From Escherichia phage PE37: a stretch of DNA of 64,000 nucleotides. The DNA is taken from the sequence record NC_054929.1, one strand, 5' to 3'. A program made the position numbers and the translations under genes. The notes beneath the pieces were generated by a model. That model had not been told where the DNA came from and made no database searches. It worked only from the letters and a program-made list of their open reading frames with translations. Below are positions 532-52,804 of this stretch, piece by piece; position 1 is the first letter of the stretch; every line of letters begins with the position of its first letter.

Positions 532-747
532 ATGAAAAGTTTTAAAGATGTAAAAGTTGGTGAAATTTTCTGTTTAGATAACGGTGATCAGTTAATTCGT
601 ATTTCACCTCTTAAGAGCACTAGCGAGAAACCGACAGTTAACGCTACTTTAGCAAATAACAGTAATGAACGTTTCTGTATTGAAAATGATACTGAAACTT
701 ATACCGTAGAAGAGTTTTGGGAATTGAGCGTCGACTGCGACGATTAA
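532..747 (+). CDS. hypothetical protein
   Basis: ORF with GAGGTGAA SD 7 nt upstream of ATG. Confidence 0.5.
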   Translation: MKSFKDVKVGEIFCLDNGDQLIRISPLKSTSEKPTVNATLANNSNERFCIENDTETYTVEEFWELSVDCDD

Positions 748-807
748 TTTAATGGCCGCGTGTATTCATGCGGACTTGGAGTAGAAAATAATTTAGAGGA
801 AATTAAT

Positions 808-6667: not shown

Positions 6668-10790
<4,123 letters not shown>

Positions 10791-24697: not shown

Positions 24698-26952
24698 TTA
24701 ATGTTATCAAAAGTAGTGGTGTTTCTCAGAGCTTTGACCCACAAAAAATTATTAAAGTTTTATCTTGGGCAGCTGAAGGAACATCTGTAGATCCTTATGA
24801 ATTATATGAAAATATTAAATCATATCTCCGTGATGGAATGACAACTGATGATATTCAGACTATTGTCATTAAGGCCGCTGCGAATTCTATTTCGGTTGAA
24901 GAACCTGATTATCAATATGTAGCTGCACGCTGTTTAATGTTCGCTCTTCGTAAGCATGTTTATGGGCAGTATGAACCACGTTCATTTATTGACCATATTT
25001 CTTACTGTGTAAATGAAGGTAAATACGACCCTGAATTGTTGTCAAAATATTCAGCAGAAGAAATTACATTTTTAGAATCAAAAATTAAGCACGAGCGGGA
25101 TATGGAATTTACTTATTCCGGGGCGATGCAATTAAAAGAAAAATATCTCGTTAAAGACAAAACCACCGGTCAAATTTATGAAACTCCACAGTTTGCATTT
25201 ATGACTATTGGAATGGCATTGCATCAAGATGAACCTGTTGATAGATTAAAACATGTTATTCGTTTTTATGAAGCAGTATCCACTCGACAGATTTCACTGC
25301 CAACTCCTATTATGGCTGGTTGCCGTACTCCAACTCGGCAGTTTAGTTCATGCGTTGTTATTGAGGCAGGTGATTCATTAAAGTCTATCAATAAGGCTTC
25401 CGCTTCAATTGTTGAATATATCTCTAAACGCGCTGGAATTGGTATTAACGTTGGTATGATTCGTGCTGAAGGTTCTAAGATTGGCATGGGTGAAGTACGC
25501 CATACTGGTGTTATTCCTTTTTGGAAACATTTTCAGACTGCTGTTAAATCATGTTCACAGGGTGGAATTCGTGGCGGCGCTGCTACTGCTTATTATCCTA
25601 TTTGGCATTTGGAAGTTGAAAATCTTCTTGTTTTGAAAAATAACAAAGGCGTAGAAGAAAACCGCATTCGTCATATGGATTATGGTGTTCAACTGAATGA
25701 TTTGATGATGGAACGATTCGGAAAGAACGATTACATTACTTTGTTCAGTCCGCATGAAATGGGTGGAGAGCTTTATTATTCTTATTTTAAAGACCAAGAC
25801 CGTTTCCGTGAATTATACGAAGCAGCAGAAAAAGACCCTAATATTCGTAAAAAGCGCATTAAAGCCCGTGAACTATTTGAATTGCTCATGACTGAACGCT
25901 CAGGAACAGCAAGGATTTATGTACAGTTCATTGATAATACGAATAACTATACTCCGTTTATTCGTGAAAAGGCACCTATTCGTCAGAGTAACTTGTGCTG
26001 TGAAATTGCTATTCCAACGAATGACGTGAATAGTCCTGATGCTGAAATTGGATTGTGTACGTTATCTGCGTTTGTGTTGGATAACTTCGATTGGCAAGAC
26101 CAAGATAAAATTAATGAATTAGCAGAAGTTCAAGTTCGTGCTCTTGATAATCTTTTGGATTACCAAGGATATCCAGTTCCTGAAGCAGAAAAAGCTAAAA
26201 AGCGTCGTAACCTCGGTATAGGTGTTACTAACTATGCAGCTTGGCTGGCAAGTAACTTTGCTTCTTATGAAGATGCTAACGATTTAACACATGAACTATT
26301 TGAGAGATTACAGTATGGACTCATTAAAGCATCCATTAAGCTCGCCAAAGAAAAAGGACCTTGCGAATATTATTCAGACACTCGTTGGTCTCGAGGCGAA
26401 TTACCTATCGACTGGTACAATAAAAAGATTGACCAAATCGCAGCTCCAAAATACGTTTGTGACTGGTCGTCGCTGCGGGAAGACCTTAAGCTCTTTGGCA
26501 TCCGTAATAGCACACTATCAGCACTTATGCCATGTGAGTCATCTTCCCAAGTTTCTAACAGTACAAACGGTATCGAGCCTCCACGTGGACCAGTCTCTGT
26601 TAAAGAATCAAAAGAGGGCTCCTTTAATCAAGTCGTGCCCAATATTGAGCATAACATAGACCTCTATGATTATACATGGAAATTAGCTAAGAAAGGTAAT
26701 AAACCTTATCTTACGCAGGTAGCTATTATGCTGAAATGGGTTTGTCAATCAGCTTCGGCGAATACATATTATGACCCGCAGATTTTTCCAAAAGGAAAGG
26801 TTCCAATGTCAATAATGATTGATGACATGTTATACGGATGGTATTATGGCATTAAAAATTTCTATTATCATAATACCCGCGATGGTTCTGGTACTGATGA
26901 TTATGAAATAGAAACTCCAAAAGCTGAAGATTGTTCATCCTGTAAATTATGA
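24688..26952 (+). CDS. nrdA: aerobic ribonucleotide reductase large subunit
   Basis: 754 aa; class Ia RNR alpha sequence; T4 NrdA length. Confidence 0.95.
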   Translation: MQLINVIKSSGVSQSFDPQKIIKVLSWAAEGTSVDPYELYENIKSYLRDGMTTDDIQTIVIKAAANSISVEEPDYQYVAARCLMFALRKHVYGQYEPRSFIDHISYCVNEGKYDPELLSKYSAEEITFLESKIKHERDMEFTYSGAMQLKEKYLVKDKTTGQIYETPQFAFMTIGMALHQDEPVDRLKHVIRFYEAVSTRQISLPTPIMAGCRTPTRQFSSCVVIEAGDSLKSINKASASIVEYISKRAGIGINVGMIRAEGSKIGMGEVRHTGVIPFWKHFQTAVKSCSQGGIRGGAATAYYPIWHLEVENLLVLKNNKGVEENRIRHMDYGVQLNDLMMERFGKNDYITLFSPHEMGGELYYSYFKDQDRFRELYEAAEKDPNIRKKRIKARELFELLMTERSGTARIYVQFIDNTNNYTPFIREKAPIRQSNLCCEIAIPTNDVNSPDAEIGLCTLSAFVLDNFDWQDQDKINELAEVQVRALDNLLDYQGYPVPEAEKAKKRRNLGIGVTNYAAWLASNFASYEDANDLTHELFERLQYGLIKASIKLAKEKGPCEYYSDTRWSRGELPIDWYNKKIDQIAAPKYVCDWSSLREDLKLFGIRNSTLSALMPCESSSQVSNSTNGIEPPRGPVSVKESKEGSFNQVVPNIEHNIDLYDYTWKLAKKGNKPYLTQVAIMLKWVCQSASANTYYDPQIFPKGKVPMSIMIDDMLYGWYYGIKNFYYHNTRDGSGTDDYEIETPKAEDCSSCKL

Positions 26953-27003
26953 TATAATTTGACTCACGGACGAGTCACCAACTATTAACTAAGTGGAAAA
27001 TTT

Positions 27004-28182
27004 ATGAGCACAGTTTTTAATACAAATCCAGTTGATGTTTTAAAAGAACCTATGTTTTTTGGTTCAGGTCTTGGTATTGCGCGTTATGATATTCAACGTC
27101 ATAAAGTTTTTGAAGATTTAACCGAAAAGCAGTTGTCATTTTTCTGGCGTCCTGAAGAAGTAAACTTAATGATGGATGCTGCACAGTTTAATAAGCTTCC
27201 TCAGTACCAGCAAAATATTTTTACTAATAACCTGAAGTATCAATCACTTTTAGATAGCATTCAGGGCCGCGCGCCATCTGCCGTACTTATGTCATTAATT
27301 TCAGACCCAAGCCTTGATACATGGGTTGCTACATGGACTTTTAGTGAAACTATTCACAGTCGTTCATATACTCATATTATGCGAAATCTTTATACTGATC
27401 CGTCAAAGGTATTTGATGAAATTGTATTAGATGAAGCTATTATGAAACGTGCTGAATCCATTGGACGTTATTATGATGATGTTCTGATTAAAACTCGTTA
27501 TTGGGAAAACGCTAAAGCTGATATCGAATACCAAAAAGAAATTAATGCAGACGAAGACGTTATTGAAGATGCTATTGAGCATGAGACATATTGGAAGCAT
27601 GAGCTAATGAAATCTCTTTACCTCTGTTTGCATGTAATCAACGCATTGGAAGCTATTCGTTTTTATGTATCTTTCGCATGTACCTTTAACTTCCATAAGA
27701 ACATGGAAATCATGGAAGGTAATGCCAAGATTATGAAGTTCATTGCACGTGATGAGCAGCTTCATCTTAAAGGTACACAATATATTATTCGTCAACTTCA
27801 ATCTGGTACTGATGGCGATGAATGGGTTAAAATTGCTCAAGAGTGCGAGCAAGAAGCAGTTGATATTTTCATGGAAGTTAACCGCCAAGAAAAAGATTGG
27901 GCAGTTCATTTATTTAAAGATGGCGATGTTCCTGGATTAAATACAAATAGCATGTGGAGCTTTATTGATTACTTAACTGTATCTCGTATGAAACAGTGTG
28001 GTCTTCCATGCCCAATTACCGATGCTCCGGTTAAACATCCATATCCTTGGATTCGTGAATATCTTAATTCTGATAATGTTCAATCAGCGCCACAAGAAGT
28101 AGAACTGTCATCTTATCTTGTTGCACAGATTGATAATGATGTTGATGATAAAGTTATGATGAGTTTTAAAAAATACTTTTAA
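27004..28182 (+). CDS. nrdB: aerobic ribonucleotide reductase small subunit (uninterrupted)
   Basis: 392 aa continuous ORF; diiron-tyrosyl radical protein family. Confidence 0.95.
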   Translation: MSTVFNTNPVDVLKEPMFFGSGLGIARYDIQRHKVFEDLTEKQLSFFWRPEEVNLMMDAAQFNKLPQYQQNIFTNNLKYQSLLDSIQGRAPSAVLMSLISDPSLDTWVATWTFSETIHSRSYTHIMRNLYTDPSKVFDEIVLDEAIMKRAESIGRYYDDVLIKTRYWENAKADIEYQKEINADEDVIEDAIEHETYWKHELMKSLYLCLHVINALEAIRFYVSFACTFNFHKNMEIMEGNAKIMKFIARDEQLHLKGTQYIIRQLQSGTDGDEWVKIAQECEQEAVDIFMEVNRQEKDWAVHLFKDGDVPGLNTNSMWSFIDYLTVSRMKQCGLPCPITDAPVKHPYPWIREYLNSDNVQSAPQEVELSSYLVAQIDNDVDDKVMMSFKKYF

Positions 28183-28186
28183 GGAG

Positions 28187-28209
28187 TGGGCCGCAAGGCC
28201 CATTTTATT
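28187..28209 (+). terminator. GCAA-tetraloop hairpin plus U-tract between nrdB and denA (terminator or translational element)
   Basis: TGGGCC-GCAA-GGCCCA followed by TTTTATT immediately before denA ATG. Confidence 0.45.
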
Positions 28210-29797
<1,588 letters not shown>

Positions 29798-29800
29798 GCT

Positions 29801-29830
29801 GTTTACAAGTCCCTCATGTTGTGTTATAGT
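29801..29830 (+). promoter_or_regulatory. early promoter upstream of alc, with RBS-complementary arm in the spacer
   Basis: GTTTAC 29801-29806, 18-bp spacer, TATAGT 29825-29830; CCTCATGTT 29812-29820 is complementary to AACATGAGG 29845-29853, which covers the alc SD. Confidence 0.55.
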
Positions 29831-29861
29831 AATCTTACTGACATAACATGAGGACTTTATG

Positions 29862-30365
29862 ATGGATTTGCAGCTTATTACTACTGAAATGGTCGTTGAA
29901 GCATACGGTGATACTACAGATGGGATTTCTGTATTCAAAGGAAATCGTCGAGTTGGATATATCACCGATCTTAAGAAAGATTTAGCTAAGCAAGTCAAGC
30001 GGAAAACGACCATTAAAGAATATCGAAATCGTCGTCTTGAGCAAGCCCGTGATATGCTTCCTGATGCGGTTGAAGAGATGAAAGTCTTTTTAGAAAATCA
30101 ACTCGCTAAGTATGATTGTGAAGTGTTCATTAATCAGACTCAGCCTAATGTTCATATCAATAGCTGCAAATGCTATATCATCGTTAATCCTTTGACGGGA
30201 AAGCACCGTCTTGGAATTAGTAATCCAAATCGTAGTGCATCGGATATGGCAGAAGATGTTGAGGCATGCTTTAAAATTTCTAAATCTCCAGCTGAACATC
30301 ATATTTTAATTAACGGTCTTTCTCAAGACGATATTATAGAGGTTATTAAAACTTTATGCAATTAA
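29862..30365 (+). CDS. alc: Alc, inhibitor of host transcription on cytosine-containing DNA
   Basis: 167 aa from second ATG (better SD spacing); length and position match T4 Alc. Confidence 0.75.
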   Translation: MDLQLITTEMVVEAYGDTTDGISVFKGNRRVGYITDLKKDLAKQVKRKTTIKEYRNRRLEQARDMLPDAVEEMKVFLENQLAKYDCEVFINQTQPNVHINSCKCYIIVNPLTGKHRLGISNPNRSASDMAEDVEACFKISKSPAEHHILINGLSQDDIIEVIKTLCN

Positions 30366-30709
30366 GTAATACGACAGCAGGCTTGTTATTAATTGTAATT
30401 GCATTGGGCGGAACTTCTTTAATTTTAAAAAATAAAATTGAAAGATTAGAAACGTCTGTTGTAGAAATTACAAAAACTGCTAATGAAAATGCTTTAGCAT
30501 TAAATGATTTAAAAAATCAATATAATTATATTGATGCAATGAATAATAAAAATCGTGAATCAATTGCTGCAATTGAGCGTGAAAATGAAAAACTGCGCAA
30601 AGACGCAAAGAAGGCGGATGTGGTGGCTCATAAGCCAGGATTGGTTGAAAAACAAATTAACAACTCCTTCAACAAGTTCGCAGAAGACATCCAGGACCTT
30701 TCTAAATGA
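30356..30709 (+). CDS. i-spanin (inner membrane spanin subunit, pseT.3-like)
   Basis: N-terminal TM anchor then coiled-coil-rich periplasmic domain; adjacent to lipoprotein ORF. Confidence 0.65.
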   Translation: MQLSNTTAGLLLIVIALGGTSLILKNKIERLETSVVEITKTANENALALNDLKNQYNYIDAMNNKNRESIAAIERENEKLRKDAKKADVVAHKPGLVEKQINNSFNKFAEDIQDLSK

Positions 30710-51779: not shown

Positions 51780-52406
51780 ATGTATGAATACAAATTTGAT
51801 GTGAGAGTTGGTTCTAAAATAATCAACTGTCGCGCATTTACTCTTAAAGAATATCTAGAACTTATTACTGCTAAAAAGAATGGTTCAGTAGAAGAGATTG
51901 TTAAAAAGCTAATCAAAGACTGTACAAATGCAAAAGATTTAAACCGCCAAGAATCAGAACTATTACTGATTCATTTATGGGCGCATTCTCTTGGAGAAGT
52001 TAATCATGAAAACTCCTGGAAGTGCACCTGTGGAACTGAAATACCAACCCATATAAATCTATTACATACACAAATAGATGCACCAGAAGACCTCTGGTAT
52101 ACACTGGGTGACATTAAAATTAAATTCCATTACCCTAAAATTTTTGATGATAAAAATATAGCCCACATGATAGTATCATGTATAGAAACGATTCATGCTA
52201 ACGGTGAAAGCATTCCAGTTGAAGACTTAAATGAAAAAGAATTGGAAGATTTATATTCTATCATCACAGAGTCAGATATTGTAGCTATAAAAGATATGCT
52301 TTTAAAGCCTACTGTTTATTTGGCTGTTCCAATTAAGTGTCCAGAGTGTGGAAAAACTCACGCTCATGTAATAAGAGGACTCAAAGAATTCTTTGAGTTA
52401 CTATAA
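51780..52406 (+). CDS. 26: baseplate hub subunit gp26
   Basis: 208 aa; synteny and length. Confidence 0.85.
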
Positions 52407-52804
52407 TGGCAAATATTAATAAGCTTTATTCTGATATTGACCCAGAGATGAAAATGGATTGGAACAAAGACGTTTCAAGATCACTTGGATTAAGGTCAAT
52501 TAAAAATAGTCTTTTAGGAATTATTACAACAAGAAAAGGTTCAAGACCGTTTGACCCTGAATTTGGATGCGATTTATCTGACCAACTTTTTGAGAATATG
52601 ACTCCTCTTACTGCTGACACAGTTGAGCGTAATATCGAAAGCGCAGTAAGAAACTATGAGCCACGTATTGATAAATTAGCAGTTAATGTAATACCGGTTT
52701 ATGATGATTATACTCTGATAGTAGAAATACGCTTTTCGGTCATCGATAACCCTGATGATATTGAGCAGATAAAACTACAACTGGCTTCCAGTAATAGAGT
52801 ATAA
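52406..52804 (+). CDS. 25: baseplate wedge subunit gp25
   Basis: 132 aa; synteny and length. Confidence 0.85.
   Translation: MANINKLYSDIDPEMKMDWNKDVSRSLGLRSIKNSLLGIITTRKGSRPFDPEFGCDLSDQLFENMTPLTADTVERNIESAVRNYEPRIDKLAVNVIPVYDDYTLIVEIRFSVIDNPDDIEQIKLQLASSNRV

What the first reader, a model, noticed from the sequence alone, without database searches (positions are those of the whole stretch)
28181..28212. denA start codon has no adjacent SD; a hairpin bridges a distant SD
The only SD-like sequence upstream of the denA ATG (28210) is AAGGAG at 28181-28186, 24 nt away and overlapping the nrdB stop. The intervening 16 nt form a stable GCAA-tetraloop hairpin (28187-28202), which would bring SD and AUG to a normal effective spacing. 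The hairpin plus following U-tract could double as a partial terminator for nrdB. I recall a similar split ribosome-binding site being described for other T4 genes.
Basis: partly seen in the sequence, partly recalled or inferred. Interest (0 to 1): 0.4.

Follow-up and report, generated by a model that had tools for sequence, protein, structure and literature searches.

The report
Hairpin-bridged ribosome binding site of denA
The endonuclease II gene (denA) of this T4-type phage starts 23 bases after its ribosome-docking sequence, and a small conserved RNA hairpin most likely folds that gap away, as already proven for T4 genes 38 and 25, so this is a third example of a known mechanism, not a new one.

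Summary
The nrdB stop codon is TAA at 28180-82. AAGGAG lies at 28181-86, a 6-bp GCAA hairpin at 28187-28202, UUUUAUU follows, and the denA ATG is at 28210.

The hairpin is real. In 25 distinct nrdB/denA junctions from at least 10 named genera, 95% of pair cells are paired and 4 of 6 pairs show compensatory changes. In all 25, an AAGG(A)-type purine run overlaps the nrdB stop just before the stem (weakest, AAGAG, in L033/L034). No Shine-Dalgarno (SD) 4-mer follows the stem, and only 6-10 nt separate the stem from the ATG.

The design nearly copies the proven T4 gene 37/38 junction (UAAGGAG, 16-nt tetraloop hairpin, 6 nt, AUG). A scan of the whole T4 genome finds this layout at only three annotated starts: genes 38 and 25, both validated, and denA.

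The best explanation (0.7) is a hairpin-bridged "split" ribosome binding site. A second role as a leaky terminator is plausible but untested. The GTG start in the T4 reference record is not conserved in relatives.

This is a new member of a known kind, of modest interest. I found no open-access paper that describes it for denA.

The parts
27004..28182 (+). nrdB coding sequence (ribonucleotide reductase small subunit, no intron here). Its stop codon TAA at 28180-28182 overlaps the SD.
   Evidence: ORF list. Annotated as NrdB in matching phage records.
28181..28186 (+). Shine-Dalgarno sequence AAGGAG for denA. It overlaps the last two bases of the nrdB stop codon and directly abuts the hairpin.
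   Evidence: Sequence. Duplex with the 16S 3' tail has dG -8.0 kcal/mol. An AAGG(A)-type run (AAGAG in L033/L034) sits at this place in all 25 distinct junctions. X04140.1 annotates AGGA here as an RBS.
28187..28202 (+). 16-nt hairpin UGGGCC-GCAA-GGCCCA: 5' arm 28187-92, GNRA tetraloop 28193-96, 3' arm 28197-202. It is proposed to loop out the excess spacer.
   Evidence: dG -11.6 kcal/mol. Pair probability about 1.0. Covariation: 95.3% of cells paired, 4 of 6 pairs compensatory, 0 of 500 shuffles as good. RNAalifold predicts the same helix.
28195..28198 (+). AAGG inside the hairpin (loop plus 3' arm). This is a cryptic SD-like string and is judged non-functional.
   Evidence: Annotated as a second RBS in X04140.1. 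Sequestered in the helix. Absent in relatives with UUCG loops.
28203..28209 (+). U-rich 7-nt spacer UUUUAUU between the hairpin and the AUG. It is the effective SD-AUG spacer and could also serve as a terminator U tract.
   Evidence: Sequence. In relatives the spacer is 6-10 nt with a mean U fraction of 0.65.
28210..28620 (+). denA coding sequence (endonuclease II, 136 aa, GIY-YIG) from the ATG at 28210-28212.
   Evidence: ORF. Relatives align from residue 1. The crystallised construct 2WSH is His-tag plus MKEIATEY.... The ATG start is used in X04140.1, ACG-C40, SV76 and G50.
28186..28188 (+). In-frame GTG, used as the denA start in the T4 reference record AF158101.6 (144 aa). Judged not to be the start.
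   Evidence: An in-frame upstream start exists only in the T4 type, L011, L052 and L050. In the other lineages the intergenic length is 26, 28 or 32 nt, or no start codon is present. The GTG overlaps the SD, so it has no usable spacing.

Best explanation
The nrdB/denA junction is a hairpin-bridged ('split') ribosome binding site.

The only strong anti-SD complement, AAGGAG, overlaps the nrdB stop codon and lies 23 nt before the denA AUG. That is too far for direct use. The intervening 16 nt fold into a very stable tetraloop hairpin. The folded RNA then presents SD and AUG about 7 nt apart, and a 30S subunit bound at the SD can place the AUG in the P site.

Shown here: the sequence anatomy, the stability of the helix, its evolutionary conservation with compensatory changes, the conserved position of the SD and the short SD-free spacer, and the match to two proven cases.

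Inferred: that the hairpin forms on denA mRNA in vivo, that it raises denA translation, and that initiation is at the ATG.

Because the SD overlaps the nrdB stop codon, ribosomes finishing nrdB may also feed this site (coupling). That would be compatible with the model, not a rival to it.

Separately, I put about 0.4 on the same hairpin plus U run also terminating a fraction of nrdB transcripts.
For: 1. Anatomy and stability.

2. Conservation. 35 of 36 IMG/VR loci and 11 named GenBank phages keep the layout TAA-AAGG(A)-hairpin-6..10 nt-ATG. The named phages are Tequatrovirus F2, Kagamiyamavirus, Gelderlandvirus, Winklervirus, Gaprivervirus, Mosugukvirus, Kanagawavirus, Marfavirus, Moonvirus, Bragavirus and a Klebsiella phage. 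DenA identity falls to 60% across them.

3. Covariation. 95.3% of cells are paired, 4 of 6 pairs carry double changes (28 cells), 0 of 500 shuffles reach this, and sliding the 3' partners collapses the signal. RNAalifold predicts the same helix independently.

4. No SD 4-mer lies in the spacer of any of the 25 distinct junctions. The purine run after the stop is kept while the neighbouring stem bases vary.

5. Internal contrast. Other tetraloop hairpins in this window (before ac, 30.6, uvsW.1, alt and the T2-type gene 38) are followed by their own GAGG, GGAG or GGAGG and sit 11-33 nt before the ATG. In Krischvirus Phi1, denA has its own SD after a hairpin.

6. Same design as the proven cases. 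The T4 37/38 junction reads UAAGGAG-AGGGGCUUCGGCCCUU-CUAAAU-AUG. Gene 25 in this window reads AAGAGG-20-nt hairpin-7 nt-AUG. The review PMC3014915 states that for genes 38 and 25 the structure cuts the spacing from 22 to 5 nt and from 27 to 11 nt, and that destabilising mutations reduce initiation.

7. Specificity. A scan of all 16,312 start-like codons of T4 gives 5 hits. Three are at annotated starts: gene 38, gene 25 and denA. In the window the count is 2 of 87 mapped starts, denA and gene 25.

8. No promoter-like element lies between the hairpin and the ATG, so denA must be read from transcripts that contain the hairpin. DenA protein is detected in T4 infection (PMC9697503 supplement).
Against: 1. 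There is no experiment on denA. All support is comparative or by analogy.

2. In the T4-type sequence the folding model extends the stem through GGAG:UUUU wobble pairs (pair probabilities 0.09-0.99 depending on context). The SD would then be partly masked.

3. The hairpin plus UUUUAUU looks like an intrinsic terminator. Several GenBank records annotate it as one. The spacer is U-rich in most relatives, unlike the A-rich spacers usual in this phage.

4. Some relatives have a weak SD. AAGGU or AAGGC give dG about -3.5 to -3.9, and L033/L034 give -1.7 unless stem bases are counted.

5. In a sample of IMG/VR sites with a UUCG hairpin, a short spacer and an ORF-opening ATG, 36 of 45 have no SD before the stem. 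AUGs just after hairpins can therefore be used, or be mis-called, without this device.

6. The T4 reference record starts denA at the GTG.

7. One relative (L029) and the Aeromonas phages have no hairpin and overlap the upstream stop with the ATG instead. The hairpin is therefore not indispensable.
Confidence: 0.7

Rival explanations
1. The hairpin is only an intrinsic terminator or a 3'-end stabiliser for nrdB mRNA. The purine run before it is incidental. denA is translated on read-through transcripts by termination-reinitiation or by SD-independent (S1 and U-rich leader) initiation, without needing the folded bridge.
For: - A GC-rich stem is followed by UUUUAUU.
- At least 3 U among the first 4 spacer bases in 17 of 25 distinct relatives, with a mean U fraction of 0.65.
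- Annotated as a terminator in SV76, G50 and others.
- A weak hairpin terminator has been shown experimentally in the same nrd region, inside mobE (PMC2790892).
- Many IMG/VR junctions with a hairpin, a short spacer and an ATG have no SD before the stem.
- Direct stop/start overlap replaces the hairpin in L029 and in Aeromonas phages.
Against: - It does not explain why a purine-rich SD-type run directly abuts the stem in all 25 distinct junctions.
- It does not explain why this layout occurs in T4 only at denA and at the two proven split sites.
- Other hairpins in the window carry an SD after them.
- L033 and L034 keep the hairpin but have no U run (GUAAAGCU, AUAAAGCU).
- No promoter lies between the hairpin and the ATG, so an efficient terminator would silence denA.
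- The tool's terminator scan found no site here, though for a technical reason.
Confidence: 0.17
2. The structure is a brake rather than a bridge. The extended helix (GGAG paired with UUUU on top of the 6-bp stem) hides the SD and keeps the toxic nuclease at a low level. Opening it, for example by ribosomes finishing nrdB, allows a little translation.
For: - The minimum-free-energy structure and the pair probabilities in the T4-type sequence pair 28183-86 with 28203-06.
- Structures that reduce initiation are known in T4 for e, I-TevI and others (PMC3014915).
- From general knowledge, EndoII cleaves cytosine-containing DNA, so low expression is plausible.
Against: - The extension consists of weak G-U and A-U pairs.
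- It is not conserved. The mean pairing probability of the SD segment ranges from 0.20 to 0.93 among relatives, and most cannot form it.
- The covarying part is only the 6-bp core, which does not include the SD.
Confidence: 0.07
3. denA starts at the in-frame GUG at 28186, as in the T4 reference record, giving a 144-aa protein. The hairpin would then be coding sequence.
For: AF158101.6 annotates the 435-nt CDS. The frame from the GTG to the ATG is open in the T4 type.
Against: - The GUG overlaps the SD, so there is no spacing.
- The extension is not conserved. 18 of 25 distinct junctions have no in-frame upstream start, and intergenic lengths of 26, 28 and 32 nt break the frame.
- The region evolves as a paired RNA, not as codons.
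- Relatives align from Met1 of the 136-aa form.
- X04140.1 and most records use the ATG.
- The crystallised enzyme begins MKEIATEY after its tag. Its E-to-A change is residue 118 when counted from the ATG.
Confidence: 0.03

Closest known systems
T4 gene 38 translation initiation region, at the gene 37/38 junction (split SD/AUG bridged by a hairpin; Nivinskas et al. 1999 and earlier work from the Gold laboratory, as summarised in PMC3014915)
   Same: - The upstream stop UAA overlaps UAAGGAG.
- A 16-nt tetraloop hairpin follows immediately.
- A 6-7 nt spacer lies before the AUG, with 22 versus 23 nt of linear spacing.
- There is no SD next to the AUG.
   Different: - The loop is UUCG in gene 38 and GCAA here. 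Relatives of denA mostly have UUCG.
- The gene 38 spacer is not U-rich (CUAAAU).
- Gene 38 is a late gene, whereas denA is prereplicative.
- The mechanism has been tested for gene 38 and not for denA.
T4 gene 25 translation initiation region, at the gene 26/25 junction (Nivinskas 1999; Malys and Nivinskas 2009)
   Same: The SD (AAGAGG) abuts a hairpin and 7 nt follow before the AUG. It is detected by the same scan in this window, with ATG at 52406.
   Different: - The gene 25 hairpin is AU-rich and lies inside the gene 26 coding region. The gene 26 stop overlaps the gene 25 AUG.
- According to the review, the gene 25 structure is confined to close T-even phages.
- The denA arrangement spans at least 10 named genera.
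Intrinsic (Rho-independent) terminators, for example the weak terminator mapped inside T4 mobE (PMC2790892)
   Same: A GC-rich stem with a 4-nt loop, followed by a short U run, in the same nrd gene cluster.
   Different: - Here the AUG of the next gene follows 7 nt after the stem, and an SD sits directly before the stem.
- No 3' ends have been mapped.
- In some relatives the U run is missing.
Translational coupling by overlapping stop and start (ATGA or TAATG)
   Same: denA has no independent SD next to its AUG, and its upstream neighbour ends close by. L029 and Aeromonas phages 25 and Ah1 use a true overlap.
   Different: In the window, stop and start are 27 nt apart with a stable hairpin between them.
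RegB endoribonuclease sites (GGAG in early T4 initiation regions)
   Same: An unpaired GGA/GGAG lies in an intergenic initiation region of a prereplicative gene.
   Different: The 3' context is a GC hairpin, not the A-rich consensus GGAGRAYARAA. GGAG itself is not conserved in relatives, which have GGAU, GGAA, GGAC or GGU.

Membership tests
Hairpin-bridged (split) ribosome binding site, as in T4 genes 38 and 25 | An SD complementary to the 16S rRNA 3' end lies too far from the start codon for direct use (more than about 15 nt) | tested here: met
   AAGGAG at 28181-86, with 23 nt to the AUG. Duplex dG is -8.0 kcal/mol.
Hairpin-bridged (split) ribosome binding site, as in T4 genes 38 and 25 | No usable SD at the normal distance from the start codon | tested here: met
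   The spacer is UUUUAUU. The only other SD-like 4-mer, AAGG at 28195-98, is inside the helix and is not conserved.
Hairpin-bridged (split) ribosome binding site, as in T4 genes 38 and 25 | A stable local hairpin fills the excess spacer and leaves about 5-11 nt of effective spacing | tested here: met
   16-nt hairpin with dG -11.6 and pair probability about 1.0, leaving 7 nt. The layout is the same as in genes 38 and 25.
Hairpin-bridged (split) ribosome binding site, as in T4 genes 38 and 25 | The structure and the split arrangement are conserved in relatives, with compensatory changes | tested here: met
   25 distinct junctions, 95.3% of cells paired, 4 of 6 pairs compensatory. The positions of the SD and the short spacer are kept.
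Hairpin-bridged (split) ribosome binding site, as in T4 genes 38 and 25 | Initiation takes place at the codon downstream of the hairpin | tested here: inconclusive
   The conserved ATG and N-terminus, the PDB construct and most annotations favour ATG 28210. The T4 reference record uses GTG 28186. No N-terminal protein data are available here.
Hairpin-bridged (split) ribosome binding site, as in T4 genes 38 and 25 | Stem-disrupting mutations lower translation and compensatory mutations restore it; the structure is seen by probing | not testable with these tools
   Needs reporter fusions, toeprinting, and DMS or SHAPE probing.
Intrinsic transcription terminator | A GC-rich stem-loop immediately followed by a U tract | tested here: met
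   6-bp stem with 5 GC pairs, followed by UUUUAUU. At least 3 U in the first 4 bases in 17 of 25 relatives, and absent in L033 and L034.
Intrinsic transcription terminator | RNA 3' ends map to the U tract, or termination is seen in vitro | not testable with these tools
   No 3'-end data were found in the open literature searched. The terminator labels in GenBank are predictions.
Stop/start overlap coupling (ATGA, TAATG) | The upstream stop and the downstream start overlap or touch | tested here: not met
   27 nt separate the stop from the ATG in the window. The feature is met only in L029 and in Aeromonas phages.
Strong RegB/S1 cleavage site | GGAG followed by the A-rich consensus RAYARAA | tested here: not met
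   The sequence is GGAGUGGGCCG, against the consensus quoted in PMC3014915.
Any Rfam family | Covariance-model score at or above the gathering threshold | tested here: not met
   The best match is L20_leader at 24.7 bits, against a threshold of 58.7.

The most novel reading that the evidence does not exclude
The unit 'stop codon overlapping UAAGGAG, tetraloop hairpin, 6-10 nt, AUG' may be a recurrent and possibly portable junction module of phage operons. It would not be a curiosity of two or three T4 genes. It could serve two purposes at once. It would mark or protect the 3' end of the upstream message (termination or stabilisation), and on read-through RNA it would form the bridge that lets the next cistron start.

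It occurs at nrdB/denA across at least 10 named genera and at gene 37/38. In IMG/VR it occurs at nine or more unrelated junctions, including capsid to tail tubular protein A in T7-like contigs.
Probability: 0.3. Interest if true: 0.5.

Novelty: new member of a known kind. Interest (0 to 1): 0.3.

Why it matters
- It adds a third, more widely conserved natural example to a mechanism known from two T4 genes. The helix covaries clearly, which gives a ready set of natural compensatory mutants for testing how a ribosome accommodates a hairpin between SD and AUG.
- It argues that the denA start in the T4 reference genome (GTG, 144 aa) should be the ATG (136 aa). That reference annotation is reused in omics studies.
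- It warns that gene finders and terminator predictors will mis-handle such junctions. They tend to choose wrong starts, label a 'terminator' where a ribosome site lies, or report no ribosome binding site.
- If the wider survey holds, split sites are a common design in phage operons and should be modelled in translation-rate predictors.

Tried and rejected
- **Mapping gene starts from phage ACG-C40 by coordinates.** This failed because the window is not colinear with that record. I mapped the starts by blastn instead.
- **The tool's terminator scan.** It gave no site here. This is a technical miss, not evidence.
- **Literature.** Searches for denA together with SD, hairpin or terminator found nothing specific. 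The key primary papers were not held: Nivinskas 1999, Malys 2009 and 2012, Miller 2003, Sjoberg 1986 and Tseng 1990. Prior description of denA in subscription literature therefore cannot be excluded.
- **T4 Term-seq or 3'-end data.** None was found.
- **T4 omics paper (PMC9697503).** It gives only temporal classes: nrdB RNA early, denA RNA middle, DenA protein detected. It has no per-base coverage.
- **Rfam.** No family matched.
- **RegB site.** Rejected on the 3' context.
- **AAGG at 28195-98 as the real SD.** Rejected because it is buried in the helix and not conserved.
- **GTG start.** Rejected on comparative grounds.
- **Masking of the SD by the wobble extension.** It is not conserved.
- **Search for micro-variation of the hairpin.** Among T4-type genomes this gave only 5 IMG/VR copies and near-identical GenBank copies. 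The one loop variant, GUAA, is still a GNRA loop.
Full report
**What is there**

The window is a Tequatrovirus (T4-type) genome segment. Over 27900-28500 it is 100% identical to phage ACG-C40 and 98.7% identical to T4. The T4 nrdB/denA junction itself is identical to the window's.

- nrdB (27004-28182) ends in TAA at 28180-82.
- AAGGAG occupies 28181-86.
- UGGGCC-GCAA-GGCCCA occupies 28187-28202.
- UUUUAUU follows, and the denA ATG is at 28210.
- The isolated hairpin has dG -11.6 kcal/mol. Its six pairs have probability about 1.0 in contexts of 81 to 241 nt.

Two details need adjusting.
- There are 23 intervening bases, not 24.
- AAGGAG is not quite the only SD-like string. AAGG at 28195-98 was annotated as a second possible ribosome site in the original 1986 record X04140.1. 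It sits in the loop and 3' arm of the hairpin.

**Is the hairpin real?**

I collected nrdB/denA junctions from IMG/VR (36 loci, DenA identity 60-99%) and from named GenBank phages.
- All but one IMG/VR locus, and every named phage in which denA follows nrdB, show the same layout. The stop TAA runs into AAGG(A/G). A tetraloop hairpin follows, mostly with a UUCG loop. Then 6-10 nt lead to the ATG.
- The stems differ: GGGAC/GUCCC, GGGAGAC/GUCUCCC, CAGGGC/GCCCUG, GAGGGC/GCCCUC and others.
- On a MAFFT alignment of the 25 distinct junctions, 95.3% of pair cells are standard pairs.
- Four of six pairs carry changes on both sides (28 cells), and no shuffle out of 500 reaches the observed score.
- Sliding the 3' partners by one column drops pairing to 63-69%.
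- RNAalifold predicts the same helix without being told.

The hairpin is a selected RNA structure.

**What is it for?**

Four comparative facts point to translation initiation.

1. A purine run of the AAGG(A) type, complementary to the 16S 3' end, directly precedes the stem in all 25 distinct junctions. The neighbouring stem bases vary freely. In L033 and L034 the run is only AAGAG and is weak unless stem bases are counted.
2. No junction has an SD-type 4-mer between the stem and the ATG. The 6-10 nt available are too few to hold an SD plus a spacer.
3. Elsewhere in this window, tetraloop hairpins that precede genes are followed by an ordinary GAGG, GGAG or GGAGG. This holds for ac, 30.6, uvsW.1, alt and the T2-type gene 38, and the ATG lies 11-33 nt after the stem. 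In Krischvirus Phi1, where denA is not next to nrdB, a hairpin is followed by GAGGAAAGGA and then the ATG.
4. The layout matches the two experimentally established T4 cases.
   - The review PMC3014915 states that for genes 38 and 25 an RNA structure between SD and AUG shortens the spacing from 22 to 5 nt and from 27 to 11 nt. It also states that destabilising mutations reduce initiation.
   - The T4 37/38 junction reads UAAGGAG-AGGGGCUUCGGCCCUU-CUAAAU-AUG.
   - The nrdB/denA junction reads UAAGGAG-UGGGCCGCAAGGCCCA-UUUUAUU-AUG.
   - Gene 25 in this window reads AAGAGG, a 20-nt hairpin, 7 nt, AUG.

**Specificity**

I wrote a simple scanner for the layout: an SD 4-mer, 0-3 nt, a Watson-Crick hairpin, 4-12 nt, a start codon.
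- It hits 2 of 87 mapped gene starts in the window, denA and gene 25.
- With hairpin dG <= -6 it finds the same two sites. Forty dinucleotide shuffles give a mean of 0.3 hits, and none as stable as the denA hairpin.
- Over the whole T4 genome (16,312 start-like codons on both strands) it gives five hits with dG <= -4 and an ORF of at least 25 codons. Three are annotated starts: gene 38, gene 25 and denA. The other two are not annotated starts.

So denA is the third T4 gene with this architecture, and the other two are the proven ones.

**Which start codon?**

The T4 reference record AF158101.6 begins denA at the in-frame GTG at 28186, giving 144 aa. That would put the hairpin inside the coding sequence. 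Several observations argue against this start.
- The GTG overlaps the SD.
- An in-frame upstream start is found only in the T4 type and three other lineages.
- Intergenic lengths of 26, 28 and 32 nt in other lineages break the frame.
- The segment evolves as paired RNA.
- Relatives align from Met1 of the 136-aa form.
- X04140.1, ACG-C40, SV76 and G50 use the ATG.
- The crystallised enzyme 2WSH is a tag plus MKEIATEY. Its E-to-A change is residue 118 when counted from the ATG. From memory, this agrees with the published mutant name E118A.

I take the ATG as the start. No protein N-terminal data were available.

**The terminator idea**

The hairpin plus UUUUAUU looks like an intrinsic terminator. 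Several GenBank records label it so.
- In favour: the spacer is U-rich in most relatives (mean U fraction 0.65, with at least 3 U in the first four bases in 17 of 25). SD-AUG spacers in this phage are normally A-rich. A weak hairpin terminator has been shown in the same gene cluster, inside mobE (PMC2790892).
- Against a purely terminator role: L033 and L034 keep the hairpin without a U run. No promoter-like element lies between the hairpin and the ATG, so a strong terminator would silence denA. DenA protein is made in infection.

I rate a leaky second function at about 0.4. It cannot be tested here.

**Other rivals**

- The folding model extends the stem in the T4-type sequence through GGAG:UUUU wobble pairs, which would partly hide the SD. 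Relatives mostly cannot form this extension. A conserved repressive role is therefore unlikely, though some damping in T4 itself is possible.
- The GGAG is not in the A-rich context of strong RegB sites.
- No Rfam family matches.
- Because the SD overlaps the nrdB stop, terminating ribosomes must cover the SD and probably open the base of the hairpin. Reinitiation after nrdB may add to de novo initiation. This is inference only.
- One relative (L029) and two Aeromonas phages have dropped the hairpin and overlap the upstream stop with the denA ATG. This fits the view that denA has no free-standing ribosome site of its own.

**Beyond T4-type phages**

The pattern TAAGGAG, 0-3 nt, GGGCUUCGGCCC, 6-10 nt, ATG occurs in 30 IMG/VR contigs.
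- In 29 of them the ATG opens an ORF of at least 54 codons, or one that runs off the contig end. In most, the TAA closes a long upstream ORF.
- At least nine unrelated junctions are represented. One precedes a tail protein (phrog_394; a weaker match, phrog_9239, is to tail tubular protein). Another precedes a 92-aa family of unknown function.
- In an unselected sample of sites with this hairpin and an ATG 3-12 nt after the stem, an SD-type 4-mer within 3 nt before the stem was present in 9 of 45 ORF-opening ATGs. It was present in 0 of 54 ATGs that open no ORF. Fisher p is 5e-4, or about 0.03 if the 9 are collapsed to four families.
- Most ORF-opening sites in that sample had no SD before the stem, so the device is one solution among several.

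This part is exploratory.

**Verdict**

Its secondary suggestion remains open.

The mechanism is already known, and denA appears to be a new member. I found no open-access paper that describes it for denA. The older subscription literature could not be read.

Interest is modest, at 0.3.

Noticed in passing
window 28186-28188 (GTG); T4 AF158101.6 137517-137951: The T4 reference genome annotates denA from an in-frame GTG that overlaps the SD (144 aa). The 1986 record, most other phage records and the crystal-structure construct use the ATG (136 aa). Comparison with relatives favours the ATG, so the reference annotation probably needs correcting.
   Followed up: yes
window 720-754 (+), ndd start: The ndd ATG at 752 has no adjacent SD. 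A hairpin CGUCG-ACUG-CGACG (729-742) ends 9 nt before it and is preceded by GGAAUUGAG. This could be a weaker, fourth split-site candidate. My scanner missed it because UGAG is not in its list of SD 4-mers.
   Followed up: no
window 52373-52408 (+), gene 26/25 junction: The known gene 25 split ribosome binding site is present in this window: AAGAGG, the 20-nt hairpin ACUCAAAGAAUUCUUUGAGU, 7 nt, AUG. It served as a positive control.
   Followed up: yes
window 7445-7481 (- strand), gene 37/38 junction: This phage carries the T2-type gene 38. Its junction keeps a UUCG hairpin (7474-7459) but has an ordinary GGAGG (7457-7453) 5 nt before the ATG (7447). T4's unrelated gene 38, by contrast, has the split site.
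   Followed up: partly
window 27004-28182: nrdB is a single uninterrupted 392-aa ORF here. T4 nrdB is split by the group I intron that carries I-TevIII.
   Followed up: no
whole window versus JN986846.1: The window is identical to phage ACG-C40 around nrdA-pseT (about 24-33 kb) but is not colinear with it elsewhere. There are many indels and 90-98% identity at other gene starts. The source is therefore a different, mosaic Tequatrovirus.
   Followed up: partly
L029 (IMGVR_UViG_2974786931_000001), about 1490-1503: One T4-like relative has lost the hairpin and SD altogether. The nrdB stop overlaps the denA start (TTATGA). Aeromonas phages 25 and Ah1 likewise overlap denA with a different upstream gene.
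   Followed up: partly
L066-L095 and L096-L214 (IMG/VR contigs): The cassette TAAGGAG, UUCG hairpin, 6-10 nt, ATG recurs at nine or more unrelated phage gene junctions. One precedes a tail protein (phrog_394; weaker hit to tail tubular protein). Another precedes a 92-aa family beginning MAYS..APKTLGNQLGRWA, which has no PHROG match.
   Followed up: partly
window 26500-30500: The consensus terminator scan reports no site at the nrdB/denA hairpin. It extends the stem through G-T pairs and so uses up the T run. Negative results from that scan near U-rich flanks are unreliable.
   Followed up: yes
L042 (Krischvirus Phi1) 345-400: Upstream of Phi1 denA, the preceding ORF ends TAATAAGGU directly before a GAAA-loop hairpin. 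This resembles the split layout, but the ATG lies 26 nt further on with its own GAGGAAAGGA. It could be a relic or an intermediate form.
   Followed up: no
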